Part shown: positions 1 to 38,137 of the stretch, one piece after another
Position numbering within the stretch: position 1 is the stretch's first letter
How the letters are laid out: the number at the start of each line of letters is the position of its first letter
IMG/VR virus record: IMGVR_UViG_3300021431_000075
Location: 288,001-352,000 of that record
Length of the DNA: 64,000 nucleotides
Origin: a virus
Taxonomy: Duplodnaviria > Caudoviricetes
Strand: one strand, 5' to 3'
Notes under the pieces: model-generated
What the model saw: the letters and a program-made list of their open reading frames with translations, nothing else
What the model was told of the DNA's origin: nothing
Databases searched by the model: none
Made by a program: the position numbers and the translations under genes

Positions 1-1654
1 CGACAAGCCTGCCCTGCGTGTCAATGTAGTTCGTCCTGATGACGGCCTGGTTGCCGTCGAAGCATAATGTCCTGACCTGCGCGAACCCGTCCGCGAACGG
101 CATCGCGTCCTCGAAGAATGTTTCCGAAAGCAGGCGTCCGGTCCTGTCTATGAAGTTCCAGCCGTTGAGCTGCCGTAATCTGTCGTCCGACGCCGTGATG
201 CAAACAGCGGCAAACCCCCCGCTGAACGGCTTCGCGTCCGTGATGGCGCACCCGATGTCCAGGGCTGTCATGCCGAAGTCCCTCGCGTAGTCGAGCATGA
301 CTTCGGTTCCGCTCCTGTCTGTCAGGCGGTCTATCAGCTTTCCGTCAGCGCCTATGAAAGTCTTCGCGCCGGAGCCTCCGGTCTCGACAATCCCGAATCC
401 GTCCCTGAATTCCGAGGCGTTCACGAACCACCGGTCCGAAAGGAGCCTTCCGTCCGTTCCGACATAGTTGAACAGTCCGTTGTTCTTGACGATTCCGAAT
501 CCGCCAGAGAACCCGTAGCACCTCTGGAAGCCGGGCTTCAGCAGGAAGTTCCCGTTTCCGTCGATGTAGTTCCACATGCCTGATGCGCGCCGCACGGCTC
601 CGAATCCCCCGCGGAACGCCTCCGCTCGGTCAAGCCTCTCCGGGGACAGCACGGTTCCGCCCTTGTCCACGTAGTTGTATCCGAAGGTCTCATGTCGGCT
701 GTTCTCGTACCGTATGACAGCGAAGCCTTCGCTGAACCGCTCCGGCACATACCCGTCCGGCTCAAGGACGGTGTTCCCGTTCTTGTCTATGAACACGTAT
801 TTCCCTGCTGTATAGTCGAAAACCCTTGCGACCCCGTCGCTGAAGTCGTCCGCCTTGTAGAACCCATTGCCGAACATGACGTTGCCGCTCTCGTCTATGA
901 AGTTGTACCGGCTCTCCTGCGGCGCGCCGGAAATGCAGACCTTCGCGCATCCGTTGCTGAAGCTTCCGCACTCGCTGAACTCGAATCCTGTTATGAGACC
1001 GTGTCCGCGCCTTGCGTATGCATAGTCGGAACCGTCTATCCTGGTCACGAGCGTGCCATTGTCCGACACGAGCCTTGCGAAAGAGCGGACTATCTCTTTC
1101 CGTGCGGCATCCCTGCCCGTGCCCGGGAACACGCATGATATGAAATCGTCCCAGCCTTCCATGGAAAGTATCCGGATCTTGCCGGTGCCGTCGTCCGTGT
1201 ACGAGAATATGACAGCCGGGGAGCTTTCGCCGTTGACAACGGACACGGACACCTTGTACCGGATTGATGACGAATCCTCGGGCATGGTCCTCGGGAACGC
1301 CATGCGGACGAGCAGGTCGCAGAACCTCCCGACGCTCCCGTCCACGGAAATTCCGTCTATGAGTATCACCTTCGCGTCAGCCGGCGAGTCGTCGAACCTG
1401 TATCCCTTCCTGACATCCGGCTTTCCGCCGCCGTTCCTCATGTACCATCCGGCGGCGCTCCTGACTTGACCGAGCACCGCTTCCGGAGTGGTTATCCGCG
1501 CAATCCACTGCCGCAGGAACTCGACAGAGAGCGGAACCACCCTCGCGCCATTCCCGGCAGAATCGTCCGCAGGGAGATCCGAGTCAGTGACCTCGTCCGC
1601 CTCGACCCTGTCAAGCAGGCTCTCCGACATGTATCTGAACCGTTTCGTTTCCAT
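1..1654 (-). CDS. WG-repeat protein with ESLLD acidic leader (3' end runs off window)
   Basis: Not in the ORF track. Read by hand at both ends: METKRFRYMSESLLDRVEADEVTD from ATG 1654, GRFCDLLVRMAFP internally, and NYIDTQGRLV in the same frame at the window edge; starts 18 nt after the upstream paralog stop. Confidence 0.85.
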   Translation of the reverse strand, partial: METKRFRYMSESLLDRVEADEVTDSDLPADDSAGNGARVVPLSVEFLRQWIARITTPEAVLGQVRSAAGWYMRNGGGKPDVRKGYRFDDSPADAKVILIDGISVDGSVGRFCDLLVRMAFPRTMPEDSSSIRYKVSVSVVNGESSPAVIFSYTDDGTGKIRILSMEGWDDFISCVFPGTGRDAARKEIVRSFARLVSDNGTLVTRIDGSDYAYARRGHGLITGFEFSECGSFSNGCAKVCISGAPQESRYNFIDESGNVMFGNGFYKADDFSDGVARVFDYTAGKYVFIDKNGNTVLEPDGYVPERFSEGFAVIRYENSRHETFGYNYVDKGGTVLSPERLDRAEAFRGGFGAVRRASGMWNYIDGNGNFLLKPGFQRCYGFSGGFGIVKNNGLFNYVGTDGRLLSDRWFVNASEFRDGFGIVETGGSGAKTFIGADGKLIDRLTDRSGTEVMLDYARDFGMTALDIGCAITDAKPFSGGFAAVCITASDDRLRQLNGWNFIDRTGRLLSETFFEDAMPFADGFAQVRTLCFDGNQAVIRTNYIDTQGRLV

Positions 1655-1671
1655 CCGCTTGTTTCCATTGT

Positions 1672-3405
1672 TTATATGAACGCGACGAACTCCCCGTCCG
1701 GGTCCATCGCGGAGCCGTATCCGTATTCCGAAAGCAGGCAGCCGTCCTCGGACATGCAGTACCTGGCCTTGACGCAGAACGAGTCGTCCTCCGGAATCAG
1801 AAGCTCTCCCCTCGTGTTTATGAAGTTGTAGAACTTGACCGGCGTGTTCTCCACCGCCATCTCCACCCTCGCGATTCCGTTCACGAACGGCTCGCAGTAC
1901 ATGAAGAACCGGTCGGACAGCATCTTTCCGTCCGGCTTCATGTAGTTCCACCTCTTTATGTATCCGAGGGACACGCACACCCTTGCCAGCCCGCCGCTGA
2001 ACGGATACGCGTCAGTTATCGTGACCCTCTTCCCGTTCACCGTCCTGTCGAAAATCTTCCTGCCGGACGTGTCGATGAAGTTGTACGACGGGTTCGGGAA
2101 CGTGTAGTCCGTGTCGGACACGACAGCCAGCCCCTCGCTGAACCTGCGTGCGACGGAGAACCTGTCCTTGCCCAGCATCTTTCCGTTCCTGTCGACGTAG
2201 TGGTACATCATGTCCCGGCGGACGACCCCGTATCCGCACGAGAACGGACCGCCGCACCAGTCGCATCCGTCGTCGAGCAGCATCGTCCCGTCCGTCCGCA
2301 TGTAGTTGAAGCGGTTCTCCGGCTTGTCCATGGACACCACAGCCATGCCCTCCGAGAAGTCGCCGCAGGAGTCGAACCAGCTGTCGGACAGGAGCCTTCC
2401 GTCCCTGCCGATGTAGTTGAACTTGTTCACGTTCTTTCCGTACCTCACGACGGCGAACCCCTCGTGGAATCCGCCTTCCGGCAGGTAGTTCGTATTCGAC
2501 ACGGTCTTTCCGTTCCGGTCTATCACGCGCATCGACGCCTTGCCGTTTGCCGCGGTCCCGACGACTGCAAGCCCGTCCCCGAAGTCAGACGCGTAGTCCT
2601 GCCACTCATCAAGCAGAACCTTTCCGTCCGCGCCGACATAGTTGTAGCCGTCCATGTACTTGTCTCCGTCCCAGTCCAGCCTCTTCACGAGGGCGAAGCC
2701 GTCGCAGAACTTCCTGCATGCGGTGAAGTCGAACCCCGTCAGGAGTCCGGAGCCGCTCAGGTAGGCCCACTTGTCCCCGTCCACGTTCGCTATGCACGTG
2801 CAGTCCTCCGTCTGGAACCTTGCGTACGCGCCGGCAATCGCGCCCTGCGCGCCCTTCCGGGTCAGTCCCAGCTTCGGAAACAGCTGCGACGCGAACTCGA
2901 ACCATCCGTGAACGGAGAACTTCTTGCATTCGCAGTCCTTCCTGTTGTCGAAGGTGTTGGTTATGAGTATCCTGCCGGAATCGGACGGAATGTACGCGTC
3001 CGGGTCTCCGAACGACACGACGACCTTGTAGTCCTTCATCGTGGTCTGGAAGCCGTCCCTCTGCATGACCATGCGCACGAGCAGGTCGCAGAACCTCTCG
3101 AACGGCGTGTCGCTGTACAGGCTGAACCTGACAAGTATGCGCTTCTTCGTCTTCTCGTCGAAGTCGTCGAACTTGCTGACATCCACGTCGCATGTGAACG
3201 GACTGCTCCTGAGGACCCCTGTGATCTGGAACAGCAATATGTTCGGCTGCACGTACTCGGTTATCCATCCGTAGTTGACAGTGACCGTGAACTCCATTGG
3301 GATGCTCGGTCTTGACTCTTCTTCTATGACATCTTCCGAGTCCTCGACCTCGTCGGCATCCACCGAATCGAGCAGGCTCTCTCTTATCTGATATGTTCGC
3401 GCCAT
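1672..3405 (-). CDS. WG-repeat protein with ESLLD acidic leader
   Basis: IRESLLDSVDADEVED leader; repeats FxEGxAVV...(Y/F)NY(I/V)DxxG; C-terminus DPDGEFVAFI. Confidence 0.9.
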   Translation of the reverse strand: MARTYQIRESLLDSVDADEVEDSEDVIEEESRPSIPMEFTVTVNYGWITEYVQPNILLFQITGVLRSSPFTCDVDVSKFDDFDEKTKKRILVRFSLYSDTPFERFCDLLVRMVMQRDGFQTTMKDYKVVVSFGDPDAYIPSDSGRILITNTFDNRKDCECKKFSVHGWFEFASQLFPKLGLTRKGAQGAIAGAYARFQTEDCTCIANVDGDKWAYLSGSGLLTGFDFTACRKFCDGFALVKRLDWDGDKYMDGYNYVGADGKVLLDEWQDYASDFGDGLAVVGTAANGKASMRVIDRNGKTVSNTNYLPEGGFHEGFAVVRYGKNVNKFNYIGRDGRLLSDSWFDSCGDFSEGMAVVSMDKPENRFNYMRTDGTMLLDDGCDWCGGPFSCGYGVVRRDMMYHYVDRNGKMLGKDRFSVARRFSEGLAVVSDTDYTFPNPSYNFIDTSGRKIFDRTVNGKRVTITDAYPFSGGLARVCVSLGYIKRWNYMKPDGKMLSDRFFMYCEPFVNGIARVEMAVENTPVKFYNFINTRGELLIPEDDSFCVKARYCMSEDGCLLSEYGYGSAMDPDGEFVAFI

Positions 3406-3433
3406 AAGAATCTGTGATTTATAGACTATAAAC

Positions 3434-3440
3434 TATTTAT
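3434..3440 (-). promoter_or_regulatory. ATAAATA late-type promoter box
   Basis: About 29 nt upstream of ATG 3405; same box precedes most paralogs. Confidence 0.6.
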
Positions 3441-4088: not shown

Positions 4089-4110
4089 TCTGTTCACTTT
4101 CGCAGCCGTG

Positions 4111-5778
4111 TCACACGCATGACACCTGCGAGCCGTCCGTGCCGAACCTTATGCAGCGCGCCCCGTCCGTGGTCTGGAAGAACCCGTCCCTGAGCACCGG
4201 GACCGAGAACTCCGCGCCGAACATCTCGTCGATGACGGTCTTTCCGTCATACGCGACGATGGACCAGCGCCCGCTCGGCCTGACGACGCAGATCATCCCG
4301 GCATCCTCGTAGTCCGCGACAATCTCCCCGTCGCAGACCGCGGTCCCCGTCGCCGCGCTCATCACGGTCATGTTCCTCCTGACGAGGTTCGCGGAACTGC
4401 ACACCTGCACGAACCTCCCGTTGAATACGCTGGCGTTCCTGAAGCCGTGCGCGGACAGGAACTTTCCGGAGGTGTCCGCGACGAAGAGCCTGTCCTTGCT
4501 GGTCCTCAGCAGCAGTATCCCGTGGCTCGGCAGGCTGACTCTCGCGAACCAGTCCCTGAAGAGAAGCCTCCCGTCCGGACCGACCGCGTTCTCCTTCCCG
4601 TCGTGCGCGCCCCAGACCTTCATGTCGGACACGACTCCGGCGCCGTCCGAGAACCCGGTTGCCATCCGGTACCACCTGCCGAGCAGCAGGGTCCCTTGCG
4701 GCACCCTGACGTAGTTCGCCGCCGTGACCCGCGTGCCGCCGTCGCGCTCCTCCCTGTACACGCGCGCCAGGCCGCTGCTCACGGGACCCAGGTACCAGCC
4801 CCAGTCCCGCAGCGCGGGCCTTCCCTCCGTGTCGACGAAGTTGCACTCCCTCTCCTTCCTCTTGACCCACGCGTACCCCTCGCTGAAGTATCCGGCAGCA
4901 GTCACGCCGGTCAGGTTCTTCTTAAGCAGGAGCGACCCGTCCCTGTTCACGAAGTTCCATTCACGGTTGTTCGACACCTCGCAAGGAATCGGCCAGTCGC
5001 CGGAGAGGCACACCTGCGACCCGTTATGGAACCACTGTCCGCACACCTCCGTGCCGTCGGGACGGATCAGGTTCCAGTCCAGACTGTCGTCCTTCACCAT
5101 CGCGACCCCGTCGCGGAACCTTGACACGGACTTGTACAGCCTGATCTCGGTCACGGTTCCGGAAGCGCTCACGGCGAACGCCCTCCGGCGCCCATTGCCG
5201 AGGGACCACCAGACGCAGAAGTCGTCGCCGAGCCTGTCCGCAAGCGCATTGTACTGCCGGGAGTTCCTCACGACAGCCTTCGAGACCGCGCTGAACACGT
5301 CCGCGGTGCCGGCGCCGCCACCGGAGAACCTTCCGAACAGGCTCCCGACCGCGGACGGAGTGGACTGTATCCATATTCCGCTCTGCACCGTCTCGACAGT
5401 GAACCCGAACCTCGGCGTCAGCCCGACCCTTGTCTTGCGCCCTCCCGCCGCGCAGAACGCAGCCGCGATGAAGCCGCACATCCTTTCCGCGCAGATGTCC
5501 CCGGCGTTCACGTGGACGCGCACGTGGCGCTCCCTCGTCTCCTTGTCTATGAGGAACCTGTCGGTCAGCGTGCGTATGACGCGCCCGATGTACCTCGACG
5601 CGTAGTTGTCCACCGAGTGTATCCACACCTCGGTGTCGAAGTCGTCCTCCGACTCCGGCGCGGAAAGCGCGTCGTCATCCTCGACCTCGTCGGTCCCCAT
5701 GCCGTCGAGCAGGCTCTCGCAAAGAGCCGTGCAGTGCGGTCCGTATGCCGTGCCGTATCTGTATCGTGATGTTTCCAT
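4111..5778 (-). CDS. WG-repeat protein with ESLLD acidic leader (divergent)
   Basis: LCESLLDGMGTDEVED; repeats WNFVNRDG, FSEGYAWV, CNFVDTEG; C-terminus GTDGSQVSCV; ATAAATA at 5798-5804. Confidence 0.85.
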   Translation of the reverse strand: METSRYRYGTAYGPHCTALCESLLDGMGTDEVEDDDALSAPESEDDFDTEVWIHSVDNYASRYIGRVIRTLTDRFLIDKETRERHVRVHVNAGDICAERMCGFIAAAFCAAGGRKTRVGLTPRFGFTVETVQSGIWIQSTPSAVGSLFGRFSGGGAGTADVFSAVSKAVVRNSRQYNALADRLGDDFCVWWSLGNGRRRAFAVSASGTVTEIRLYKSVSRFRDGVAMVKDDSLDWNLIRPDGTEVCGQWFHNGSQVCLSGDWPIPCEVSNNREWNFVNRDGSLLLKKNLTGVTAAGYFSEGYAWVKRKERECNFVDTEGRPALRDWGWYLGPVSSGLARVYREERDGGTRVTAANYVRVPQGTLLLGRWYRMATGFSDGAGVVSDMKVWGAHDGKENAVGPDGRLLFRDWFARVSLPSHGILLLRTSKDRLFVADTSGKFLSAHGFRNASVFNGRFVQVCSSANLVRRNMTVMSAATGTAVCDGEIVADYEDAGMICVVRPSGRWSIVAYDGKTVIDEMFGAEFSVPVLRDGFFQTTDGARCIRFGTDGSQVSCV

Positions 5779-5869
5779 AGCCTTATAATATATAAGATAT
5801 TTATGCGGAAAATGCGGAGACCGGACCGTTGCAAGTCCAGTCTCCGCACTATCGGGGACGGTGCCGAAA

Positions 5870-13689: not shown

Positions 13690-13953
13690 TTGCAGGCATT
13701 GGAACGGATTGAGACGGGTGCGGTCGTTCGCGTCCATGGCAGACGGCTTCCCTATGCAGCATGATTAGTTCTCGATGCGGATTGGAGTGAATGGACTGTT
13801 TGTCTTGGACTTCTGTTCGTTATGTGTTCTGGATTCCTTTTTTTATTTTATGCAATAAATAAACAAAATGCATTTTTTGATTAAATGAGAAAACAAAATA
13901 AGAGAGCTCTTTACGAGAGCATCATGAGAGATGTTGCTAAGGTTGTCAAGAGA
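13690..13953 (+). repeat. Direct repeat copy 1 (upstream region, late box, MRKQNK leader)
   Basis: Near-identical to 14874-15144. Confidence 0.9.
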
Positions 13954-14546: not shown

Positions 14547-14641
14547 GTAAGAGTTATGTCAATTTCAATGAACAGTTATGTTTGTTCTGTTTCTTTTGGA
14601 CATTCTCAATAAATATCAATATAAACCATGCTGTTGGAAAA

Positions 14642-14896
14642 ATGTCTGCATATAAATTCTTGAATGAAAGCTTGCTGGATGATGTTGAAACTGATGATGT
14701 TGATGATGTTGATATAGAAGCAGAAGATAGTTTTGCGGGAGAAGAGCCTTTTGTTTGGGTTTTTAAATACGAACACACTGTTCCGTCATGCACGAGGGAT
14801 TATCTCAATAAGATACTGGCAAGCAGCGAGTGTGTTGGAAAGTTTGACGAACTTATGTTTAATGATGACTATATTGCAGGCATTGGAACGGATTGA
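14642..14896 (+). pseudogene. Truncated chimeric ESLLD-family gene
   Basis: MSAYKFLNESLLDDVETDD...DDYIAGIGT nearly identical to the start of 18214..19887, then stops on entering the 14874 repeat. Confidence 0.85.
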
Positions 14897-18167: not shown

Positions 18168-18213
18168 TTGTTTGATATTCAATAAATATGAATATAAACA
18201 ATGTTGTGAATAA

Positions 18214-23802: not shown

Positions 23803-23841
23803 AGAGCGGATTTCAATAAATATCTTATAAAACTTAAATCA

Positions 23842-25388: not shown

Positions 25389-27167
25389 ATGAGTAGGATA
25401 TTGAGCATAAACGAGAGCCTTCTTGACAAGGTTGAAGCCGGAGAGGTTGAGGATAACAATCATGTGGATGGCGTTGAAGTGTCCCTGTCTGTCAATGTTG
25501 AGGTCGCTGTTCAAGATGATGCTCAGGATCATGAGCGGACCGGCGAGTATGTTCCGGGAAAGGTTTCAAGGATTCTTGAAAGGGCTGTGTCGTCCGGCGT
25601 CGTCCTGTCGCATGACTTGTCATACGAGCCTGACTATAGTACTTATACTGACAAGTCTGGATGTCAGATGAGTGTCAGTTTCATGATGAGCAATGACGCA
25701 AGTCTTCGCGACTTCTGTGATCTTCTCGTAAGGATGTTCTTGCCGGCAAGGTTTATGGATACCGGAATCAGCAAGCATCTTGTTAAGATTGTCCCGAACG
25801 GAAAGCGGAGTGTTTCTTTCTGTAATTTGTCAGATTCTGAAAACAAGATGCGGAAAGAATTGAGCATATTTAGCAACGAAACATTCTTTGAGATGTTCAT
25901 GCTGTATTTTCCGGATGCATCGAAAGATGAGATTCTCAGAGAGTTTGTGCAATCCTATGCATTATGGCAGAACGACGGCGCGCCGACGAGCGTAATAAGC
26001 ATATTTACGATGGATGGACCGGATATAGAGAATGAGAATGTCATAGTTGACGGACAAGTCGTGATTGGAGAGTGGTTCAATGCGATTGATAGTTTTGATG
26101 GCAGAATCGCTATTGTCAAGAAGAGTGGCTTGATGAATTTTTATGATATTGAAAGACACACGCTTCTTTCGAATATATGGTTCAAGAAGGCGAAACCGTT
26201 CTCGGAGGGGTTTGCCGTCGTTAGCGTTGGAACTGGTTCGATTGAGGTGTACAAGTTCATAGACATGGATGGAAATTACGCTTTTGGCGGAAAGTGGTTC
26301 ATATTTGCTTCTAAGTTTAACGAGGGGTTGTCTATGGTGATTGACAGAGATAACACGTGGCGTTTCATCGACACTAAAGGGAATTTTATTACAAGAGACG
26401 GTTATGCGTCATGTCATAATTTTAGTGAGGGATTTGCTGTCGTTGGTAGAGATGAAAAGATGTGGAACTATATAGACAAGAATGGAAATCTTTTGTCTGA
26501 CGAATGGTTCTATGCATGCGGGGACTTCAAATGCGGCTTCGGTCTCGTTGCAAGAACGTCTTCGGAGTTCAACTATATAGACAAGAACGGAAATATAATA
26601 TCAGATGTGTGGTTTTACAGCGTCCGTGATTTTTGCGAGGGTATCGGCATTGTCGGAAGAATCGGACTTGGTTTCAACTATATTAAGCCGGACGGCAGTC
26701 TTTTGTTTCCTGACAAGTGGTTCATTATATGCAATGATTTCAAGAACGGATACTGTTCGGCTTTGCTTGACAGGTTTTCAAAGTACAAGTTTTACGACAA
26801 GAACGGAAAGGAAGTTTCCAATATGACGTTCGACAAGTGCCGTGATTTTTGCGGCGGGTTCGCGGCGGTTCGTGTTGACCTTTCGGAATCGCGGGGTTCT
26901 TCATCCGGTTGGAACTATATCGGTGAAAACGGAAAGATTCTGTATGAAGGCGGCTTGTTCGACATGTGCTATGATTTCAGGAACGGGTTCGGTCTGGTTA
27001 AGCTGGACGGAAGGTTCAACTACATAGATTCTGCAGGGAGACTGGTCAGCGACAAGTGGCTTGATAACTATATGGAGATGGAACCGTCAAGCGACGGCAT
27101 GATATTGACCGATTACGGAAGCGGATGCGCTGTTGATTCGAATGGATTTTTCATCGCGCTGGTTTAA
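25389..27167 (+). CDS. WG-repeat protein with ESLLD acidic leader
   Basis: MSRILSINESLLDKVEAGEVED; WNYIDKNG repeats; C-terminus VDSNGFFIALV. Confidence 0.92.
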   Translation: MSRILSINESLLDKVEAGEVEDNNHVDGVEVSLSVNVEVAVQDDAQDHERTGEYVPGKVSRILERAVSSGVVLSHDLSYEPDYSTYTDKSGCQMSVSFMMSNDASLRDFCDLLVRMFLPARFMDTGISKHLVKIVPNGKRSVSFCNLSDSENKMRKELSIFSNETFFEMFMLYFPDASKDEILREFVQSYALWQNDGAPTSVISIFTMDGPDIENENVIVDGQVVIGEWFNAIDSFDGRIAIVKKSGLMNFYDIERHTLLSNIWFKKAKPFSEGFAVVSVGTGSIEVYKFIDMDGNYAFGGKWFIFASKFNEGLSMVIDRDNTWRFIDTKGNFITRDGYASCHNFSEGFAVVGRDEKMWNYIDKNGNLLSDEWFYACGDFKCGFGLVARTSSEFNYIDKNGNIISDVWFYSVRDFCEGIGIVGRIGLGFNYIKPDGSLLFPDKWFIICNDFKNGYCSALLDRFSKYKFYDKNGKEVSNMTFDKCRDFCGGFAAVRVDLSESRGSSSGWNYIGENGKILYEGGLFDMCYDFRNGFGLVKLDGRFNYIDSAGRLVSDKWLDNYMEMEPSSDGMILTDYGSGCAVDSNGFFIALV

Positions 27168-27186: not shown

Positions 27187-28989
27187 ATGTCTGTTATTTT
27201 TTTAAACGAGACTTTGCTGGATAGTGTTGAAGGTGATTCTGTTGAAGATCTTCATGAAGATTTTGAAGTGGACTTTGATGTTTCTTTTTCTATCACGTTT
27301 CCGCATATTGATGAGAATGACAACCAAAAGAAATGCTATAAGAAGAATGATGATTATATTTTGAATAAAGCGAGAGCCATGCTTGAGCATTATTCAAACG
27401 CAGGGCTTGTCAGTGAGTTTTCGGTTAAACGTTCCGAGCGTACAAACATACATTTCAAGATGAGTGGAAATTCTGTTCTTTATGATTTCTGCATGCTGTT
27501 TGTCAAGATGTTTTTGCCGCGGCACTGTTTCAACTCTGAATCAGGTTATATGATACAAGTCTGGTATTCCGACAACAAGATAGTTTCTATTACGAACGGC
27601 ATGGATGAAAGTTTTGATAGGTACAAGACGCTGGTTGTTGGAAGAGCATCAGATATTTGTAATCTGATTAAGAGATATTTTCCGGATGAGACTGAATATG
27701 AGATAGAGCGGACTTTTATTCAGGCATATGCGGAATGGCAGAGGGACGAGGGCGTTGTCAGTGTCGTCAGGATGATCGATTCGTATGATCATTTGAATGA
27801 GAATATAAGAGAGAACATAATAGACAAGTCGGGTAATCTTGTTCTTGACGAGTGGGTTACAGATGTCTCGTCGGTAAGCGAAGGCATCGCAATCATAAAG
27901 AAAGGGGGTTATGAAAGTTATTATGACATCGCGAAAAGAAAAGCGTTCATGAGCGTTTATTCAGGCGAAGATAATGATTGTCTGAACATGTTTAGGGACG
28001 GGCTTGCTTGTGTTGTTGCTGGCTCGAAGTGCAAGTTTGTTGATAAGAACGGAAACTATGTGTTTGGCGGCAAGGAGTTTTCAAATGCCGGTTGTTTTGA
28101 TAACGGTTATGCGATAGTTTGGAATGAAGACGATGATACATATAACTTTATCGGCAAGGACGGCAATCTTGTGTCTGAACAGTGGTTCGGAATGTGTCAT
28201 AGTTTTAAAGACGGCTTGGCTGCTGTCGTGTTGAATAACAGCGAAGATGAAAATCCGGACTCTATGGAAGAAGATAAGAATGAGAAGAGGTATAACTATA
28301 TAGACACGAGAGGAAACCTGATTTCCGAAATTCCGTTTTCTTATGCTGGTGATTTCAGCGAGGGGTTCGGTCTCGTTTCTATAAACAATAAGGGGTTCAA
28401 CTATATAGACACGAGAGGAAAACTGATTTCAGGCAAGTGGTTTGATTCGGCGCGACCGTTCAGCGGCGGGTTCGGCATCGTTTCCAAGAATGGGAAAAGC
28501 GTCTACAATTACATAAAGCCGGACGGAACGCTTCTTTTGGACCATTGGTATGACAAGTGTTACGATTTCAAGAACGGGTTTGGCATTGTCAAGGATTATA
28601 AGAGGTTCTTTTATGTTGATTCTAACGGAAATCGAATTTCCGATTCCTATTATGACTTATGCTTCAATTTCTGCGAGGGTTTCGCCGTGGTCTATTCTTC
28701 GTACAAATCCGATACGATGAGAAGATGCTATAACTACATAGACACGAAAGGGGAGTTTCTGTACAAGGACGGGATGTTCATGTCTTGTTATGATTTTGAG
28801 AACGGTCTCGGACTTGTTATGGTTGACAAGGGAAAGTATAACTATCTGGACAAGAACGGAAAACTTGTCTTGAAAGAGTGTATTGATGACTATATGCAAC
28901 TGGAGCGCGTGTCCGATTCGATTTTCAAACTTAATTATGGTGATGGTTCCTGTGTTGATTTGGATGGAGAGATGGTTGTTTTGGTCTAA
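27187..28989 (+). CDS. WG-repeat protein with ETLLD acidic leader
   Basis: FLNETLLDSVEGDSVED; YNYIDTRG repeats; C-terminus VDLDGEMVVLV. Confidence 0.92.
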   Translation: MSVIFLNETLLDSVEGDSVEDLHEDFEVDFDVSFSITFPHIDENDNQKKCYKKNDDYILNKARAMLEHYSNAGLVSEFSVKRSERTNIHFKMSGNSVLYDFCMLFVKMFLPRHCFNSESGYMIQVWYSDNKIVSITNGMDESFDRYKTLVVGRASDICNLIKRYFPDETEYEIERTFIQAYAEWQRDEGVVSVVRMIDSYDHLNENIRENIIDKSGNLVLDEWVTDVSSVSEGIAIIKKGGYESYYDIAKRKAFMSVYSGEDNDCLNMFRDGLACVVAGSKCKFVDKNGNYVFGGKEFSNAGCFDNGYAIVWNEDDDTYNFIGKDGNLVSEQWFGMCHSFKDGLAAVVLNNSEDENPDSMEEDKNEKRYNYIDTRGNLISEIPFSYAGDFSEGFGLVSINNKGFNYIDTRGKLISGKWFDSARPFSGGFGIVSKNGKSVYNYIKPDGTLLLDHWYDKCYDFKNGFGIVKDYKRFFYVDSNGNRISDSYYDLCFNFCEGFAVVYSSYKSDTMRRCYNYIDTKGEFLYKDGMFMSCYDFENGLGLVMVDKGKYNYLDKNGKLVLKECIDDYMQLERVSDSIFKLNYGDGSCVDLDGEMVVLV

Positions 28990-29034
28990 ACGGAAAATTT
29001 CAATAAATATAGAAATGGAAACTGCTTGACTGTG

Positions 29035-30720
29035 ATGTCTGGATATAAGTTCTTGAACGAGACCTTGTTGGATAATGTCGAATCTGATGATGTTGAAGAT
29101 GTTGATGTTGAAACTACTGTTGAAGATTCCGAGTTCAATTATGATTTTAAGTTTGGTTATTCTAAGCCGATGCCTAATTTCTCTAAGCTTGAACTTGACA
29201 AGTTCTTGAATAAGTGTAGATTTATTCACGGCTCCAGAAGAGTTGAGTTTGGCATAAACAATGTAGACTTTTCTTTGAAGTTCTATTCATGTCATTTTGG
29301 TCTTTCCGACTTGTGTGAACTGATAGGATTTGTTGTCGGACTCGTAGGTTTGCATCGTGTGACAGTGTCCGGTTGTTATGAGATGCAAGGCGATGATATA
29401 ACACAGTCGTTCACAATAGACAACGCACAAGACGGTTTAGTTTATATAAGCAGCAAGAAGAAGTTTCTCGGGTTCTTCAAGATATATTTTCCAGATATTC
29501 CGGACAACAGGATTGTGGATGCTCTTGCTGGTAGTGTTGTCAAGCATGTTTATCATAGATTTATGAATACGAGTCCGGACGGTGAATATGTGGTTGTATG
29601 TCTTCAGAACGACTACAATATATTCATGGATGGAAAGCTGCTTTCGGAAGAGTGGTTTTCTTCATGCTCGTTGAATTTTTCTGACGGATTTGCCAAGGTT
29701 AGCAGAGATTATAGAGACAATTATATAGACAAGACCGGAAATCTTTTATCTCCTGAACGCTGGTTCAAACAGTGCTATGAATTTGAAAAGGGATATGGGA
29801 GGGTCGTGATTGACAAGTATGAGAATCTTGTTGATATAAACGGTAATGTTATATTCAAAGAGAATTTCGAATCATGCTTTGTTCCGGACGATGGTTTGTG
29901 CGTTGTTCAGAAAGACGGCAAGTGGAATATTGTCAAGCTGGATGGAAATTATGTTTTGGATGATTTTGCTGTTGATGTGAAATCGCTTGACTCCGGAATG
30001 TTCGGAATACAGTCGGATGACGAATTGTGGTCTATTGTCGATAAGGATGGGAATCCAATAACGACAGATAGGTTCGAAGAATGCCGTTCTTTTAGTTGCG
30101 GTTTCAGTCAGGTCAAGAGGGATGGAAAGTGGAACTATGTCGGACTTGATGGTAAGATTCTTGTGAAAGAACGGTGGTTTGATAGTTGCGCGGAGTTTTG
30201 TTATGGTTATGGAATCGTTACTGATAACGATAAAGAAGATTTTCGCACATATAATTTTATTGACATTCATGGAAATCTCGTTTCTAACGAATGGTATGAA
30301 CACGTATTTGTTGGAAATGGCGGATTTCTTGAGGTCCGTAACGGTATGGATTGCGCAAACTTGCTGAATACAGACGGAAGTCTGTTCTTTGATGAATGGG
30401 TTCATTATATCCATTTGCCTGATGATGACAACGGATGTGCAATAATCGCCAATAAAGACAAAAAAGAGAAGTTTTTGACTCGTGAATTTAGAATGATTCC
30501 TGATGGGGAGTGGCTTGATGAATGCTATCAATTTCGTGGAGAACTGGGTATGGTCAAGAAAGGAAAGAAGTTCAACTACATCAAGAAGGACGGAAGCTTT
30601 GTTTTTGGCAAGAATGACTGGTTTGTTGACAAGTACAAGTTCGAGTTGCGTGGAGACTTGCTTGTAGCAAGGGACGGAACGTGTTTTGATTTTGACGGAA
30701 ACTATGTTTCGACGATTTAG
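29035..30720 (+). CDS. WG-repeat protein with ETLLD acidic leader
   Basis: MSGYKFLNETLLDNVESDDVED; ATAAATA 29003-29009; C-terminus FDFDGNYVSTI. Confidence 0.92.
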   Translation: MSGYKFLNETLLDNVESDDVEDVDVETTVEDSEFNYDFKFGYSKPMPNFSKLELDKFLNKCRFIHGSRRVEFGINNVDFSLKFYSCHFGLSDLCELIGFVVGLVGLHRVTVSGCYEMQGDDITQSFTIDNAQDGLVYISSKKKFLGFFKIYFPDIPDNRIVDALAGSVVKHVYHRFMNTSPDGEYVVVCLQNDYNIFMDGKLLSEEWFSSCSLNFSDGFAKVSRDYRDNYIDKTGNLLSPERWFKQCYEFEKGYGRVVIDKYENLVDINGNVIFKENFESCFVPDDGLCVVQKDGKWNIVKLDGNYVLDDFAVDVKSLDSGMFGIQSDDELWSIVDKDGNPITTDRFEECRSFSCGFSQVKRDGKWNYVGLDGKILVKERWFDSCAEFCYGYGIVTDNDKEDFRTYNFIDIHGNLVSNEWYEHVFVGNGGFLEVRNGMDCANLLNTDGSLFFDEWVHYIHLPDDDNGCAIIANKDKKEKFLTREFRMIPDGEWLDECYQFRGELGMVKKGKKFNYIKKDGSFVFGKNDWFVDKYKFELRGDLLVARDGTCFDFDGNYVSTI

Positions 30721-30741: not shown

Positions 30742-32340
30742 ATGAAAGATTTGTATATGAACGAGAGTTTGCTTGATGGAGTTGAAACGGATGAAATTGA
30801 AGATGATGTTGATGTAGATGAGAGCAGAGAAGTCATGTTGAAGATTACAACAGACCACATTCGCATTCGTCCGGATAATTTTTACAAGTCAGTTTTCGAT
30901 AGGTTTAGATATGTAAAGAATGTTGACTTTCATCATAATGCGCATATGTTCTTGTTCGAATTTGTGGAAACCGGGATGACGCTTGACGGAATGTTCGCTC
31001 TTTTGTGCAGGTTGATGTTTGTGACGACGAACGAGAAAGTCAATACTACAAGCAGGAATCCAATGAAACGCATATTTTACATATATGATAAACAAGAGAG
31101 ATGGTTCATTTGCAAGTTTTCGTTTAATGATCATAATCCGGATATTTGCTTAGGTGATTCGTTGTTTGATATTGTTGGAGACTATTTTCCGGATAAGAGT
31201 GTAGATGAGATAGTCGGTTCTTTTGTCAAGGAATGTGCCCGTGTTTATTTCTTTGACAACCATGAACAGAACAGTTTTAATGTTTCATATACAGTTAATG
31301 GAAACGAAGTCTCTCGGTTGTTTGATAGGAACGGAAATGTTTTATTTGATAGCGAAAGCGACTTTATATTGTGTGATTGTGATTTCAGAGACGGATTCTT
31401 GCCAGTCAAGAATCCAAACCCTGTACAATACGGTTGTGATTTCAATTATATCGACAAGGAAGGACATTTGTTGTCTGATGTGTGGTACTGGAAGTGCAGA
31501 CCGTTCAATAACGGGTTTGGGACGGTAATGAATGACAAATATCGATGGAACTATATAGACAAGAACGGTGATATATTGACTCCGGATGTGTGGTATGGTA
31601 GATGCGAGCCGTTTTCAGAAGGTTTTGCTCGTGTTTTGAAAGATAACGGTCGTGAGACTTTTGTTGACAAGAACGGTTCAATAATGGATAATGACTATGC
31701 GTATTGTTCTTCTTTTCATGACGGATATTCAATTGTTCAGAATGATAATGGTAAGTTCAATTTCATAGATAAGAAAGGAAATCTGTTAAGTAAGAATGTT
31801 TGGTTTGAATCGTGCCGAAATTTTTCAGAAGGTTTCGGACTGGTTTATGCAGATAATAAGAGAGGCTGGAACTATATAGATAAACATGGGGGATTCTTAT
31901 TAGATGTATGGTGTAGTAATTGCAAATCTTTTCATGGCGGTTTCGGTATAGTAAAATTTGCATCTAATGATGAAGAAACATTTGTGGATAGAAACGGAAA
32001 TTTGCTGGGCAATAAACACTTTAGCAAATGTTATGATTTCAAGGACGGTTTTGCAAAAGTAGAAAATTATAAAGGACAGTTTAATTATATAGACCGATAC
32101 GGCAAAGAGCTGTTCAACAAATGGATTAGCCTCAAATATAATGGTGAATATGTCGGTGGTTTTCTAAAGGTTGAGAATACAGGTGATAATACGGTTAATT
32201 TTATGAATTTGAAAGGAGACTATATCTTGAACAAGTGGATAAATGCAGATGTTTTAGGGTTCCGTGTAGATAACGGGGTGCTGTTCATAAGTGATGGAAC
32301 ATGCGTTGATAGTGATGGAAGTTTTGTTGCTATTGTTTGA
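30742..32340 (+). CDS. WG-repeat protein with ESLLD acidic leader
   Basis: YMNESLLDGVETDEIED; WNYIDKNG repeats; C-terminus VDSDGSFVAIV. Confidence 0.92.
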   Translation: MKDLYMNESLLDGVETDEIEDDVDVDESREVMLKITTDHIRIRPDNFYKSVFDRFRYVKNVDFHHNAHMFLFEFVETGMTLDGMFALLCRLMFVTTNEKVNTTSRNPMKRIFYIYDKQERWFICKFSFNDHNPDICLGDSLFDIVGDYFPDKSVDEIVGSFVKECARVYFFDNHEQNSFNVSYTVNGNEVSRLFDRNGNVLFDSESDFILCDCDFRDGFLPVKNPNPVQYGCDFNYIDKEGHLLSDVWYWKCRPFNNGFGTVMNDKYRWNYIDKNGDILTPDVWYGRCEPFSEGFARVLKDNGRETFVDKNGSIMDNDYAYCSSFHDGYSIVQNDNGKFNFIDKKGNLLSKNVWFESCRNFSEGFGLVYADNKRGWNYIDKHGGFLLDVWCSNCKSFHGGFGIVKFASNDEETFVDRNGNLLGNKHFSKCYDFKDGFAKVENYKGQFNYIDRYGKELFNKWISLKYNGEYVGGFLKVENTGDNTVNFMNLKGDYILNKWINADVLGFRVDNGVLFISDGTCVDSDGSFVAIV

Positions 32341-34403: not shown

Positions 34404-35009
34404 TTAGATTATGCTGTTGAGTATTTCTGAATAGCCTTTGAAATATGGATATTGTCTTTCAATATAGAAGTTTGCATCTCTATCATCATTTACGTCATCA
34501 CGCTGATTTTTGTCAAGACTTATCCATCCGTTATCCAGTGCTTTGTTATATGCGCATTGATGGAGAATTACGAAAGCAAGTTCTGATTCGTTTAATTTTT
34601 CGATGAAATTATAGTTCAGAAACATATAATTTTTATATTCATCATAAGCAGCAGTGTCAATTTCATCTGTGATTATATATTTCTTTGGCGCAAATGGTAT
34701 GTATAACTCATTGTATGCATTAGGAACTTCTGTCTTGATAAAATTAATTGCAATCTTTATTAATCTATCTCCCAAAACACTAAATCGGTGGTTTTTTAAT
34801 CTTGTTGATGACATTTTTAATCGATCTTGACGCCAATCATCTTTTTTATGAGGAAAATGACTATAACCTTGTTTTTCATCTTTTATGATTCTTTCTGCAT
34901 CTTCTTTGGAAATCAAATTAACGGTAGATTCATTAAGTCTTCTCTTGACAACTTTTGCGACATCTCTCATGATGCTCTCATATAGTGTTTTCTTATTTTG
35001 CCTTTTCAT
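34404..35009 (-). CDS. LYESI-leader protein with DUF2201-N-like (probably inactive) metallopeptidase domain
   Basis: MKRQNKKTLYESIMRDVAKVVKRRLNE; DTAAYD...LNYNF...ELAFVILHQCAY, where HExxH is replaced by HQxxY; ATAAATA 35032-35038. Confidence 0.7.
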   Translation of the reverse strand: MKRQNKKTLYESIMRDVAKVVKRRLNESTVNLISKEDAERIIKDEKQGYSHFPHKKDDWRQDRLKMSSTRLKNHRFSVLGDRLIKIAINFIKTEVPNAYNELYIPFAPKKYIITDEIDTAAYDEYKNYMFLNYNFIEKLNESELAFVILHQCAYNKALDNGWISLDKNQRDDVNDDRDANFYIERQYPYFKGYSEILNSII

Positions 35010-36137: not shown

Positions 36138-36217
36138 ACATACTTGATGCACTTTTTTGTAAAATTGCATCTAAAAAAATAAATATCTTATAATATCAAA
36201 CATAGAAAGACAAACCA

Positions 36218-38137
36218 ATGAACACTCTATACAGAAGAAGAAATTATTATATAAATGAAGACTTGCTGGACAAGGTCAGTGTGGATGAAGTCGAAGATGA
36301 AGATAATGATGAAGCCAAAAGCATCAAGAATGATGAGAATGCTGATTGTAATGTCAAGTTATGGTTTGGTTATGATTATGGAAACACTGCAATGTGTGTT
36401 GCTGATTGTATTTATGACTATTTGGATAATTGTTCTTTTGTCAAGAAGTTTAAGGCGCCGGTTCATGACCGGTGTCATCATAAAATCGGAATCAATTTCT
36501 ATTCTGATGACATGAAGGCAGAAGACTTGATGAGTCTGATAATCTTTATGTCTTTTAAGTCAGGCGAACGGATGCGTGTCATGGATGAAAATACGAACGC
36601 AAGTTGCTATGTCGAAATTGAAAGATATTACTTGAATGTGGATCTTAGAGAATTTGGAAATTTTTTCAATGGATTCTTTCCGGATGAGAACACCGAGAGA
36701 CTTTTTAAGTTATTTGTTCGAATGTGCATAACAAGGCGTCTTTTGAGAAGGTCGGAGTATTCTGATTTGCCGGGTTATCAAGTTCAGCTCGGATATGAGA
36801 AACACAACTTGGTTGATGAATATGGGAATTTTTTACTCGATAGATGCTACAGCGAAAGTCGAAAGTTGGATAATTGCGATTTGGTCCGTGTTAAATCAGG
36901 AGAAAAGTACAATATCATAGACAAGAGCGGAAAACTTTTGTTTGATGAGAAGAAGTGGTTTGACATGCAGGGATATATGATGTGTGACGGATATATAAAA
37001 ATAGGTTATGGAGCCGGTTATGGCACATATAAGTTCTGGTACAACTTCATTGACATTGACGGAAATTTTCTGAATGACGAGCATTATGATGATTGTGGAA
37101 ACTTCAATGAAGGACTTGCTGCTGTCAAGATAGACAGTCGATGCAATTACATAGATACAGACGGGAACATTGTTTTTGATGAGTGGTTTGATGAGTGCGG
37201 AACTTTTATAAACGGATACGCAAGCGTCAGAAAAGATTCTAAATGGAATTTCATTGACAAGAAAGGTAAGTACTTGAGTAAAGAGTGGTTTGACAAATGC
37301 TATAACTTTGAGTATGGTATGGTTGTTGTCAAGTCAAAGAAATGCAATATGATAGACAACAAAGGAAAACTCGTATTGGCTGAGTGGGTTGATAATATCG
37401 GCACTTTCGTTGATGGATTTTCTATTGTCACGCTTAAGAATAAATTCAATTATATAGACAAGAAAGGTAATCTGTTGTCAAATGAGTGGTTTATCCAGTG
37501 TATCAATTTTAGTGATGGTTTCGGTATAGTATCGAACAAAAAGTCAAAGAAGAACTTTATTGACAAGGATGGAAATTTTTTGTCAAAAGACTGGTATGAC
37601 GATGCATGCTCTTTTGAATGCGGATTTGGCAGAGTACATGATGTAAATAAAAAGGGATGGAACTATATAGACAGAAATGGAAATATTCTGTCACCAAACT
37701 TGTGGTTTAAATCTATTGATGATTTTTGTGACTTTGGTTTGGCACTGGTTAATGAGAATAACTATGATAAGTATAATTTTATAAGGAGAGACGGTAGTTT
37801 AGTTATTGACGGATGGTTTAAGTTCGCAGATCATTTTAGAGAAGGTTTTGCACAAGTTGAAATGATTATCAATGGTCGTGAATCATATAATTTCATAAAT
37901 AGCAAGGGAACCATTATTTCGCCGGATGTCTGGTTCAGGGAAGTCTCGAATTTCAGAAACGGTGTTGCAAAGGTGACAGATTTTTCCGGGAAAATCAATT
38001 ATATAAATGAGGATGGCAAACTTTTGTTCAAAGAATGGTTTGTGTACAAGAAGATGGTTAGCGTTGAGGATGGTATGCTTGTCACGATGAATGGACTGGC
38101 TGTTGATTTAAACGGAGAATATGTGTCATTGATTTGA
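36218..38137 (+). CDS. WG-repeat protein with EDLLD acidic leader
   Basis: YINEDLLDKVSVDEVED; many NFID/NYID repeats; C-terminus VDLNGEYVSLI; ATAAATA 36179-36185. Confidence 0.92.
   Translation: MNTLYRRRNYYINEDLLDKVSVDEVEDEDNDEAKSIKNDENADCNVKLWFGYDYGNTAMCVADCIYDYLDNCSFVKKFKAPVHDRCHHKIGINFYSDDMKAEDLMSLIIFMSFKSGERMRVMDENTNASCYVEIERYYLNVDLREFGNFFNGFFPDENTERLFKLFVRMCITRRLLRRSEYSDLPGYQVQLGYEKHNLVDEYGNFLLDRCYSESRKLDNCDLVRVKSGEKYNIIDKSGKLLFDEKKWFDMQGYMMCDGYIKIGYGAGYGTYKFWYNFIDIDGNFLNDEHYDDCGNFNEGLAAVKIDSRCNYIDTDGNIVFDEWFDECGTFINGYASVRKDSKWNFIDKKGKYLSKEWFDKCYNFEYGMVVVKSKKCNMIDNKGKLVLAEWVDNIGTFVDGFSIVTLKNKFNYIDKKGNLLSNEWFIQCINFSDGFGIVSNKKSKKNFIDKDGNFLSKDWYDDACSFECGFGRVHDVNKKGWNYIDRNGNILSPNLWFKSIDDFCDFGLALVNENNYDKYNFIRRDGSLVIDGWFKFADHFREGFAQVEMIINGRESYNFINSKGTIISPDVWFREVSNFRNGVAKVTDFSGKINYINEDGKLLFKEWFVYKKMVSVEDGMLVTMNGLAVDLNGEYVSLI

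What the first reader, a model, noticed from the sequence alone, without database searches (positions are those of the whole stretch)
1..38137. Expanded WG-repeat family with a shared protease-site-like leader: candidate virion-packaged effector arsenal
Seen: 12 genes (starts 1654, 3405, 5778, 16338, 18214, 21928, 23842, 25389, 27187, 29035, 30742, 36218) and a truncated copy share one plan. It is a short leader [LIM]-x-E-(S/T/D)-(L/I)-L-D followed by an acidic DEVED-like run, a diverged middle domain, many WG-type repeats and a conserved C-cap. None has an obvious signal peptide or lipobox, and unit heads carry an ATAAATA box. Known: T4 prohead protease gp21 cleaves after (I/L)-x-E, and T4 internal proteins such as IPI use a conserved N-terminal capsid-targeting sequence on variable anti-defence cargo. 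Inference: these are late-made, head-packaged, co-injected binding scaffolds, each tuned to a different host target. That would be a bacterial-virus analogue of the ankyrin/kelch arrays of large eukaryotic viruses. I know of no description of this, but could not search.
Basis: partly seen in the sequence, partly recalled or inferred. Interest (0 to 1): 0.9.

Follow-up and report, generated by a model that had tools for sequence, protein, structure and literature searches.

The report
Leader-tagged WG-repeat protein family in megaphage
A 673-kb relative of the Lak gut megaphages spends about an eighth of its genome on some 45-50 very different repeat proteins that all begin with one short tag, which matches the cutting motif of the phage's own head protease and so probably marks them for loading into the virus head, though no virion has been examined.

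Summary
All 12 genes and the truncated copy sit at the stated starts. They share a leader, a diverged middle domain, Pfam WG_beta_rep repeats and a C-terminal cap.

The window lies in a complete 673,114-bp phage with direct terminal repeats. Its capsid protein is 71-73% identical to that of the Prevotella Lak phages.

Genome-wide, 44 genes (12% of the DNA) carry the leader by a strict pattern and about 50 by a profile search. At least six of them have no other detectable similarity to the family. The leader pattern has no match in 185,579 cellular genomes.

New support for a protease-site reading:
- The phage encodes a T4 gp21-type protease.
- That protease's own tail holds four h-N-E-[ST] motifs. 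Two sites keep P3 and Glu across 120 homologues while P2 varies.
- The capsid protein has an invariant L-N-E-D at residues 55-58.
- The distance from Met to Glu is mostly 10-12 residues, as in T4 targeting peptides.
- A RATAAATA box is shared with the portal and protease genes.
- Paralogs behind host-type promoters lack the site.

Cleavage, packaging and injection remain inferred.

This scan reached the same reading earlier in other windows of this genome.

Verdict: probable head-targeted cargo family, a new variant of a known kind.

The parts
2..1654 (-). WG-repeat family gene, leader METKRFRYMSE|SLLD; 3' end cut by the window edge (whole gene ends at G000 287882)
1672..3405 (-). WG-repeat family gene (577 aa), leader MARTYQIRE|SLLD; GC-rich copy
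4111..5778 (-). WG-repeat family gene (555 aa), 20-residue pre-Glu segment; GC 0.65, GC3 0.89
16338..18167 (+). WG-repeat family gene (609 aa), variant leader CLDE|SLMNNIEPDEVED; absent from a sheep-gut population
18214..19887 (+). WG-repeat family gene (557 aa), the member that was folded
21928..23802 (+). WG-repeat family gene (624 aa), eight clear Pfam repeats
23842..25347 (+). WG-repeat family gene (501 aa), Pfam score below cut-off but aligned with the family
25389..27167 (+). WG-repeat family gene (592 aa), leader MSRILSINE|SLLD
27187..28989 (+). WG-repeat family gene (600 aa)
29035..30720 (+). WG-repeat family gene (561 aa)
30742..32340 (+). WG-repeat family gene (532 aa)
36218..38137 (+). 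WG-repeat family gene (639 aa), separated from the array
14642..14896 (+). Truncated copy: leader plus start of the middle domain only
13885..14472 (+). WG-repeat protein (195 aa) behind the second leader (27 residues ending RRLSE)
15076..16110 (+). WG-repeat protein (344 aa, PF14903 91.5 bits) behind the second leader ending RKLNE
34404..35009 (-). Protein without WG repeats (201 aa) behind the second leader ending RRLNE
3434..3440 (-). ATAAATA box 28 nt upstream of the ATG at 3405
5798..5804 (-). ATAAATA box 19 nt upstream of the ATG at 5778
16310..16316 (+). ATAAATA box 21 nt upstream of the ATG at 16338
18182..18188 (+). ATAAATA box 25 nt upstream of the ATG at 18214
23816..23822 (+). ATAAATA box 19 nt upstream of the ATG at 23842
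29003..29009 (+). ATAAATA box 25 nt upstream of the ATG at 29035
36179..36185 (+). ATAAATA box 32 nt upstream of the ATG at 36218
14609..14615 (+). ATAAATA box upstream of the truncated copy
13855..13861 (+). ATAAATA box 23 nt upstream of the second-leader gene at 13885. The same box is at 15046-15052 for the gene at 15076, and at 35032-35038 on the minus strand for the gene at 35009

Best explanation
These genes are part of a lineage-specific family of 45-50 beta-repeat proteins in a 673-kb Lak-type megaphage.

Each protein starts with a composite tag:
- A short pre-segment, mostly 10-12 residues from Met to Glu, often with Tyr at P5 or P4. It ends in hydrophobic-Asn-Glu.
- Then Ser-Leu-Leu-Asp-x-Val-Glu-x-Asp-Glu-Val-x-Asp and an acidic run.

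Most likely course of events:
1. The proteins are made late, from the same RATAAATA-type promoters as the portal and the head protease.
2. They enter the assembling prohead by means of the tag.
3. The phage's T4 gp21-type protease trims them after the Glu.
4. They stay in the filled head as internal cargo. Part or all of it may enter the host with the DNA.

The repeat bodies would act as binding surfaces.

Shown here:
- The family, the tag and its selection as a peptide.
- The protease gene and the motif in the protease's own tail and in the capsid propeptide.
- The promoter motif.
- Portability of the tag.

Inferred: cleavage, packaging, injection, and what the repeats bind.
For: 1. T4-like head module:
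- Capsid protein matches PF07068 and is 71-73% identical to Lak phage capsid proteins.
- Portal matches PF07230 at 224 bits.
- A 612-aa protease matches PF03420 at 31.6 bits against a cut-off of 27. Its ELDHP His lines up by eye with T4 gp21 ELNHP, and H81 and S137/S138 are invariant in 22 homologues.

2. The motif looks like that protease's site:
- The protease holds 4 h-N-E-[ST] motifs. That is the most of any of 635 proteins without a leader, against a shuffle mean of 0.11; 0 of 20,000 shuffles reach 4.
- In 120 homologues, V174-x-E176-S177 and L190-x-E192-S193 keep P3, P1 and P1' while P2 varies freely.
- Capsid residues L55-N56-E57-D58 are invariant in 120 homologues. T4 gp23 is cut after Glu65.

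3. Leader logo from 45 copies: P3 is L/I/M/V in 45/45, P2 is N in 35/45, P1 is E in 45/45. The Met-to-Glu distance peaks at 10-12. T4 targeting peptides are 10-19 residues, with residues 8 and 10 needed for processing (PMC9026906). The SPN3US protease prefers Ser at P1' (PMC10052503).

4. Late expression:
- 126 of 261 ATAAATA boxes lie 0-60 nt upstream of a co-oriented start, with a peak at 20-40 nt and flanks R at -1 and A at +11.
- The box precedes the portal and protease genes.
- It is found at 19/44 leader genes against 94/633 other genes, Fisher p = 1.5e-5.

5. Four paralogs in the array at G000 17-27 kb lack the h-N-E site. Three of them sit behind TAnnTTTG boxes instead, while their two site-bearing neighbours have ATAAATA. 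A tree shows the site-less state is not one clade.

6. Portability:
- Six leader proteins have no Pfam family and no jackhmmer link to the family.
- WG bodies also sit behind a second leader ending L-N-E.
- Four second-leader genes flank the portal gene.
- A matrix built from leader 1 scores 11 of 14 second leaders above the 99th percentile of 600 other N-termini, always aligning LYE|S with LNE|S.

7. The leader is modelled as disordered (pLDDT under 50 for residues 1-33) in front of folded domains.

8. An RNA library from the same sample holds exact contigs over the genes but none over a 2.7-kb ORF-poor stretch that the DNA run covers.
Against: - No virion protein data exist for this uncultivated clade, so cleavage and packaging are untested.
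- The most conserved part of the tag lies after the presumed cut. It also persists in paralogs without the site, so it has a role that the T4 model does not explain.
- The family is large (500-780 aa) and acidic, with a median net charge of -23. T4 internal proteins are small and basic.
- Packing about 50 different 60-85 kDa proteins has no precedent, and folded beta-repeat proteins would have to unfold to leave through the tail.
- Only 43% of leader genes have their own box. The rest are assumed to be co-transcribed.
- Hydrophobic-x-Glu is a short motif, and the conserved capsid site sits in a region that is conserved throughout.
- The site-versus-promoter link rests on six genes.
Confidence: 0.5

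Rival explanations
1. Surface display. The leader is an uncleaved anchor that fastens the proteins to the outside of the capsid, neck or tail. There the WG repeats would bind glycans, mucus or cell surfaces, as decoration proteins or auxiliary fibres do.
For: - Late promoter motif.
- The plan of a conserved N-terminus with a variable body and a conserved C-terminal cap resembles families of receptor-binding proteins.
- PF14903 also rings in the Bacteroides thetaiotaomicron control genome.
- Whole genes come and go between populations, as with host-range genes.
Against: - The leader is a disordered acidic peptide, not a folded anchor domain.
- It carries the same motif as the protease's own sites and the capsid propeptide.
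- The related second leader heads small unrelated proteins next to the portal gene.
- Earlier notes of this scan place a separate set of fibre genes elsewhere in the genome (not tested here).
Confidence: 0.15
2. Cytoplasmic proteins. They stay in the infected cell, as host-takeover or anti-defence binders or as assembly helpers. The leader would be a docking or regulatory motif for some other partner, such as a chaperone, a compartment import route or controlled turnover. The L-N-E resemblance to protease sites would then be coincidental.
For: - The conserved SLLD.VE.DEV.D part does not depend on the cut site and survives in paralogs behind host-type promoters.
- The proteins are acidic and large.
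- They have no signal peptide.
- The genes appear in an RNA library.
Against: - It does not explain why P3 and P1 are invariant in 45/45 copies at a fixed 10-12 residues from Met.
- It does not explain why the motif matches the protease's own conserved sites.
- It does not explain why the site co-occurs with the late box.
Confidence: 0.2
3. No separate function. The leader is only the inherited N-terminus of a fast-diverging gene family, kept alike by recent duplication or gene conversion.
For: - Tandem arrays.
- Recent duplicates with identical upstream regions.
- Gain and loss of whole genes between populations.
Against: - Bodies are 23-29% identical while the leader is nearly invariant.
- Conserved residues use many synonymous codons, with third-position identity only 39%.
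- The leader heads six proteins with no other similarity.
- It is conserved in distant relatives from other samples.
Confidence: 0.05

Closest known systems
Phage T4 capsid targeting sequences on IPI, IPII, IPIII and Alt, removed by the gp21 prohead protease (review PMC9026906)
   Same: - Short N-terminal peptide of about 10 residues ending in hydrophobic-x-Glu.
- Placed on unrelated cargo.
- A gp21-family protease is encoded.
- Gp23-type capsid protein with a conserved h-x-Glu near residue 57.
- A late promoter of the TATAAATA type.
   Different: - No sequence similarity to the T4 peptide beyond the pattern.
- Here the best-conserved block lies after the Glu and would stay on the protein.
- The cargo is large, acidic and repeat-rich, against small and basic in T4.
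- About 50 tagged paralogs plus 14-16 genes with a second leader, against five or six tagged proteins in T4.
- Nothing has been shown experimentally.
Paralogous internal head and ejection proteins of phiKZ-like giant phages (SPN3US gp53/gp54 and family B, cut by gp245; PMC10052503, PMC5694885)
   Same: - Giant phages with a diverged gp21-type protease that cuts after Glu, with Ser favoured at P1'.
- Families of paralogous head-internal proteins.
- More than 40 MDa of internal protein.
- The protease has a self-cleaved C-terminal part.
   Different: - The SPN3US motif is A-x-E and most propeptides are 111-254 residues long.
- The families have a few members, not about 50.
- No WG repeats.
- Those proteins were found in virions by mass spectrometry, which is missing here.
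Cellular WG_beta_rep (PF14903) proteins, found for example in Bacteroides thetaiotaomicron
   Same: The same 35-residue beta repeat, above Pfam's cut-off in 9 of the 10 window genes scanned.
   Different: - The leader pattern has no match in 185,579 cellular genomes.
- The phage proteins have no signal peptide or lipobox.
- They carry a phage-specific middle domain, found in only 50 cluster representatives among 1.84 billion.

Membership tests
Pfam WG_beta_rep (PF14903) repeat proteins | Whole-protein score above the 25.6-bit gathering cut-off | tested here: met
   9 of the 10 window genes scanned score 26.1-173.5 bits. The gene at 23842 scores 20.8 bits but aligns with the family over its whole length.
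T4-type capsid-targeted, protease-processed internal proteins | The phage encodes a gp21-family (Peptidase_S77) prohead protease | tested here: met
   G000 624491-626329 (minus strand) matches PF03420 at 31.6 bits against a cut-off of 27. H81 and S137/S138 are invariant in 22 homologues.
T4-type capsid-targeted, protease-processed internal proteins | N-terminal propeptide of 10-19 residues ending in (L/I)-x-Glu | tested here: met
   P3 is L/I/M/V and P1 is E in 45/45 copies. The Met-to-Glu distance peaks at 10-12 and ranges from 4 to 20.
T4-type capsid-targeted, protease-processed internal proteins | The peptide is removed by the prohead protease | not testable with these tools
   Only indirect support: the same motif in the protease's tail and in the capsid propeptide.
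T4-type capsid-targeted, protease-processed internal proteins | The protein is present inside the mature head and is ejected with the DNA | not testable with these tools
   The clade is uncultivated. No virion proteome turned up in the papers searched.
T4-type capsid-targeted, protease-processed internal proteins | The tag is portable: the same peptide sits on unrelated cargo | tested here: met
   Six leader proteins have no Pfam family and no jackhmmer link to the family. One of them has an orthologue with the leader on another phage contig.
T4-type capsid-targeted, protease-processed internal proteins | The targeting determinant lies within the removed peptide | tested here: inconclusive
   The strongest conservation lies after the Glu and persists without the site. 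Tyr at P5 or P4 occurs in 24/45 copies.
T4-type capsid-targeted, protease-processed internal proteins | Small basic proteins, as T4 IPI-III are | tested here: not met
   500-780 aa with a median net charge of -23. T4 Alt is also large, so this feature is typical rather than strictly defining.
T4-like late genes | A TATAAATA-type box at a fixed short distance upstream, shared with head genes | tested here: met
   RATAAATA-N4-A peaks 20-40 nt before starts and precedes the portal and protease genes. The late sigma factor was not looked for.
Secreted proteins or lipoproteins | N-terminal hydrophobic signal or lipobox | tested here: not met
   highest 12-residue hydropathy mean is 1.4 or less, the N-termini are strongly acidic, and there is no lipobox.

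The most novel reading that the evidence does not exclude
A megaphage loads its head with dozens of different repeat-scaffold binding proteins, all addressed by one clip-off tag, and delivers them with its DNA. This would be a ready-made, fast-evolving repertoire against host factors. Whole genes come and go between populations, and sister copies are made early from host-type promoters. That would be by far the largest set of injected proteins known for any phage.
Probability: 0.3. Interest if true: 0.85.

Novelty: new variant of a known kind. Interest (0 to 1): 0.65.

Why it matters
If the tag does load proteins into the head, Lak-type megaphages would use part of their huge coding capacity for a packaged protein arsenal. 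That would bear on why such genomes are so large.

It would also give a short portable address peptide for putting foreign proteins into large capsids.

The deduced protease motif (hydrophobic-x-Glu|Ser), the shared core of the two leaders and the RATAAATA box are concrete and testable. They offer handles on the assembly and gene timing of a widespread gut and rumen phage clade that has no cultured member.

Tried and rejected
- Complex prediction, protease (alignment A3) with leader residues 1-45: no verdict, score 0.00. This counts neither for nor against binding.
- The genome search with PF03420 found nothing in the genome. The protease was found through phmmer with T4 gp21 and a Pfam scan of the open frame.
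- The protease had no sequence match among solved structures.
- The search for related loci in viral contigs with A1, the protease and P0020: nothing confirmed.
So start codons and gene neighbourhoods of the database relatives could not be read directly.
- The genome search could not reach the two long metagenome contigs.
- Fold searches:
  - The whole model gave only loose beta-propeller-like matches, TM 0.2-0.35.
  - The middle domain gave only generic ferredoxin-like matches, Z 5.7 or less.
  - Nothing significant came up among viral models.
  - No function can be read from any of these.
- Published Lak-A1 and Lak-B1 genomes:
  - No match to the leader plus middle-domain profile.
  - No match to the leader-1 DNA pattern with up to 2 mismatches.
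  - tblastn of one family member hit no Lak record.
  - This was one profile and one member, so weak copies could be missed.
- ORF-poor stretch at 10.3-13.9 kb: no tRNA, no Rfam family, and no long frame when TAG is read as Gln.
- Papers: no hit for WG containing repeat together with phage. Nothing on paralogs, repeats or protease in the Lak papers read.
Full report
**What the window is.** The window is G000:C1:288001-352000 of a single 673,114-bp virus record with direct terminal repeats, rated complete. Its capsid protein matches Pfam Gp23. It is 71-73% identical to the capsid proteins of Prevotella phages Lak-A1, Lak-B1 to B9 and Lak-C1, and of Hatfieldvirus porci. So this is a Lak-type megaphage. 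Runs that hold the DNA come from sheep, goat, bovine and unspecified gut samples.

**The observation.**
- All 12 stated starts are ATG codons.
- Ten of the 12 genes were scanned with Pfam and all ten match WG_beta_rep. Nine are above the cut-off.
- The 12-way alignment shows bodies only 23-29% identical. The leader has an invariant Glu and nearly invariant L-L-D, D, V and D.
- The alignment also shows a middle domain, repeats, and a cap ending in VSLI or similar.
- The truncated copy lies at 14642-14896.
- An ATAAATA box lies 19-32 nt upstream of 8 of the 12 genes.
- There is no hydrophobic signal or lipobox, and the first 45 residues carry a net charge of -6 to -14.

**Size and spread of the family.**
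- A profile of the leader finds about 50 copies in the genome. All credible ones lie near the start of a long open frame.
- A strict pattern finds 44 genes, 81.8 kb or 12% of the genome.
- The copies lie in arrays at 11-27, 52-111, 208-226, 288-326 and 362-366 kb, with singletons elsewhere.
- A profile of leader plus middle domain finds only 50 cluster representatives among 1.84 billion proteins. All carry the leader, and many are only 25-60% identical to this genome's copies.
- The back-translated leader pattern has 0 matches in 185,579 cellular genomes. It has one match on another IMG/VR contig and 15 on metagenome contigs, often two to five per contig about 2.1 kb apart.
- On those contigs an in-frame ATG lies 7-12 codons before the Asn in 23 of 25 cases.
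- Published Lak-A1 and Lak-B1 gave no match to the family. So the expansion seems specific to this lineage.

**The peptide is under selection, not the DNA.** Conserved residues use many synonymous codons: five Leu codons, both Ser codon boxes and all four Val codons. Third-position identity is 39% against 62% overall.

**Is there a T4-like head protease, and what does it cut?**
- phmmer with T4 gp21 pointed to a 612-aa open frame at G000 624491-626329. It matches Peptidase_S77 above Pfam's cut-off.
- Its ELDHP motif lines up by eye with T4 ELNHP, which holds residue His85.
- His81 and Ser137/138 are invariant in 22 homologues.
- Its long C-terminal part holds four h-N-E-[ST] motifs and one M-N-E-N. 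No other protein without a leader has more than two. Shuffles give 0.11 on average, and 0 of 20,000 reach four.
- In 120 homologues at 45-99% identity, the first two sites keep P3 (V or L), P1 (Glu in 121/121 rows) and P1' (Ser). P2 runs through E, M, N, D, Q, V, S and T.
- That pattern is what a cleavage site of the T4 kind looks like, rather than a structural motif.
- The capsid protein has L55-N56-E57-D58 invariant in 120 homologues. T4 gp23 is cut after Glu65, as its sequence and the review PMC9026906 describe.
- The SPN3US protease, a diverged gp21 relative, also favours Ser at P1' (PMC10052503).

**Anatomy of the leader (45 copies).**

| Position | Residue | Count |
|---|---|---|
| P3 | L/I/M/V | 45/45 |
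| P2 | Asn | 35/45 |
| P1 | Glu | 45/45 |
| P1' | S/N/T/D | 44/45 |
| P2'-P3' | mostly L-L | 39 and 38 of 45 |
| P6' | V/I | 41/45 |
| P9' | D/E | 45/45 |
| P11' | Val | 43/45 |
| P13' | Asp | 44/45 |

- The Met-to-Glu distance peaks at 10-12, and Tyr sits at P5 or P4 in 24 copies.
- T4 targeting peptides are 10-19 residues. Residues 4 and 7 serve targeting, and residues 8 and 10 (that is, P3 and P1) serve processing.
- Unlike in T4, the best-kept block follows the Glu.
- AlphaFold models the first 33 residues as disordered, followed by an alpha/beta middle domain and confident beta repeats.

**A second leader with the same head.**
- Three window genes (13885, 15076 and 35009 on the minus strand) begin with a 27-residue basic peptide that ends R-L-N-E or R-L-S-E.
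- Two of them are WG-repeat proteins.
- Four more such genes flank the portal gene, much as T4 genes 67 and 68 follow gene 20.
- A scoring matrix built only from leader 1 (P5 to P7') scores 11 of 14 second leaders above the 99th percentile of 600 other N-termini. It always aligns L-Y-E-S-I-M-x-D-V with L-N-E-S-L-L-x-D-V, again 11 residues from Met.
- So the two leaders share a head and differ in the tail, acidic in one and basic in the other.
- Lak-A1 from human gut has a second-leader gene with an ATAAATA box upstream. The second leader therefore looks older than the first.

**Portability.**
- Six leader-1 proteins have no Pfam family and no jackhmmer link to the family or to each other once the first 40 residues are removed. 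They start at G000 53951, 56573, 57820, 406916, 439105 and 507899.
- The one at 406916 has an orthologue with the leader on another phage contig, next to a SAM synthetase-like gene (by its translation; not scanned).

**Timing.**
- 126 of 261 ATAAATA boxes lie 0-60 nt upstream of a co-oriented start, with a peak at 20-40 nt. A purine sits at -1 in 117/126 and A at +11 in 111/126.
- The box precedes the portal and protease genes.
- It is enriched at leader-1 genes (19/44) and second-leader genes (10/14) against other genes (94/633), p = 1.5e-5 and 4e-6.
- In the array at G000 17-27 kb, the two genes with a site have this box.
- Three of the four paralogs there that lack the h-x-E site, while keeping LLD.VE.DEV, sit behind TAnnTTTG boxes of the Bacteroidetes type.
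- A maximum-likelihood tree shows the site-less genes are not one clade. So the site and the late box changed together more than once. This rests on six genes.

**Expression and population data.**
- A Logan contig of the best DNA holder bridges 3862-13719 without a difference. So the GC jump inside the window is not an assembly join.
- An RNA library from the same sample gives exact contigs over the family genes but none over 10673-13340, which the DNA run covers at depth 42. That argues for transcription rather than carried-over DNA.
- A sheep-gut run holds the region at 90-99% identity with whole-gene differences. One joint, for example, skips 16309-18213 and removes the gene at 16338.

**Reading.** The most economical account is a late-made family that is addressed to the prohead and trimmed by the protease, as T4 internal proteins and the paralogous internal proteins of phiKZ-like phages are.

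Against it:
- There are no protein data.
- The retained acidic block has a role independent of the cut site.
- The proteins are large and acidic.

I put about 0.5 on head targeting and trimming. I put 0.15 on surface display, 0.2 on a cytoplasmic role with another use for the tag, and 0.05 on no separate function. What the repeats bind is unknown. The fold searches gave only loose propeller-like and generic ferredoxin-like matches.

**Earlier notes of this scan.** Reports on other windows of this genome reached the same reading. I re-derived the census, the protease and the promoter contrast independently.

New here, as far as the notes shown to me tell:
- Conservation of the sites across 120 protease and 120 capsid homologues, with P2 free.
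- The shuffle test.
- The codon evidence.
- The absence from cellular genomes.
- The shared head of the two leaders.
- The tree for loss of the site.
- The read-level evidence.

Noticed in passing
window 1-10300 (G000 about 196-298 kb): A block of about 100 kb, mostly minus-strand genes, has GC3 of 0.6-0.89 against a genome median of 0.48 and 0.24-0.36 for the first three plus-strand genes just after the boundary. It ends inside the window. Family members of one subfamily lie on both sides, with GC from 0.35 to 0.65. A single Logan contig bridges the boundary, and a sheep-gut run holds the GC-rich part too. The origin of the block is unexplained; it could be acquisition from a GC-richer relative or a local mutation bias.
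   Followed up: partly
window 10300-13880: A stretch of about 3.5 kb has no open frame over 110 aa. It lies at the switch from minus- to plus-strand genes, close to where the GC-skew sign flips (cumulative minimum at about 8 kb). It has no tRNA, no Rfam match and no long frame with TAG read as Gln. The RNA library does not cover 10673-13340 although the DNA run does. It may be a replication origin or a regulatory region.
   Followed up: partly
window 19983-21855: An IS607-like pair, a serine resolvase (PF00239) plus a TnpB-like OrfB_IS605/Cas12f1-like protein, is inserted in the array between two family genes. A 417-aa ORF with a near-identical start, matching the TnpB-like protein, lies at G000 173895-175148.
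   Followed up: partly
window 38494-39972 (-): A 492-aa open frame with no Pfam match lies behind an ATAAATA box. A 492-aa ORF with a near-identical start lies at G000 163076-164554. It is possibly another mobile-element protein.
   Followed up: no
window 13698-18253: In a sheep-gut run the array differs by whole genes. Joints skip 13698-14887 and 16309-18213, and the latter puts in a new spacer that holds CAATAAATA. The breakpoints lie at promoter and leader boundaries.
   Followed up: partly
window 13735-13884 and 14926-15075: The regions upstream of the two second-leader WG genes are nearly identical over at least 120 nt, including the box and the first 23 codons. This points to a recent duplication.
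   Followed up: no
window 54373-55641, 58660-59820, 61837-62907, 63345-63998: Two C5 cytosine DNA methylases (PF00145), a DUF1848 protein, and the start of a formate-tetrahydrofolate ligase (PF01268, cut by the window end), which looks like an auxiliary metabolic gene.
   Followed up: no
G000 658475-659134, next to the portal gene: A 219-aa protein with a papain-like cysteine protease match (PF00112, 30.9 bits) lies directly after the portal gene and just before the four second-leader genes. One of those, at 660035, has a weak zinc-metallopeptidase motif.
   Followed up: no
G000 29977-32100 (capsid gene): Besides L-N-E-D at residues 55-58, the capsid propeptide has a second nearly invariant I-T/Y-E-A/S-W at residues 22-26 in 120 homologues. 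It may be a second processing site.
   Followed up: no
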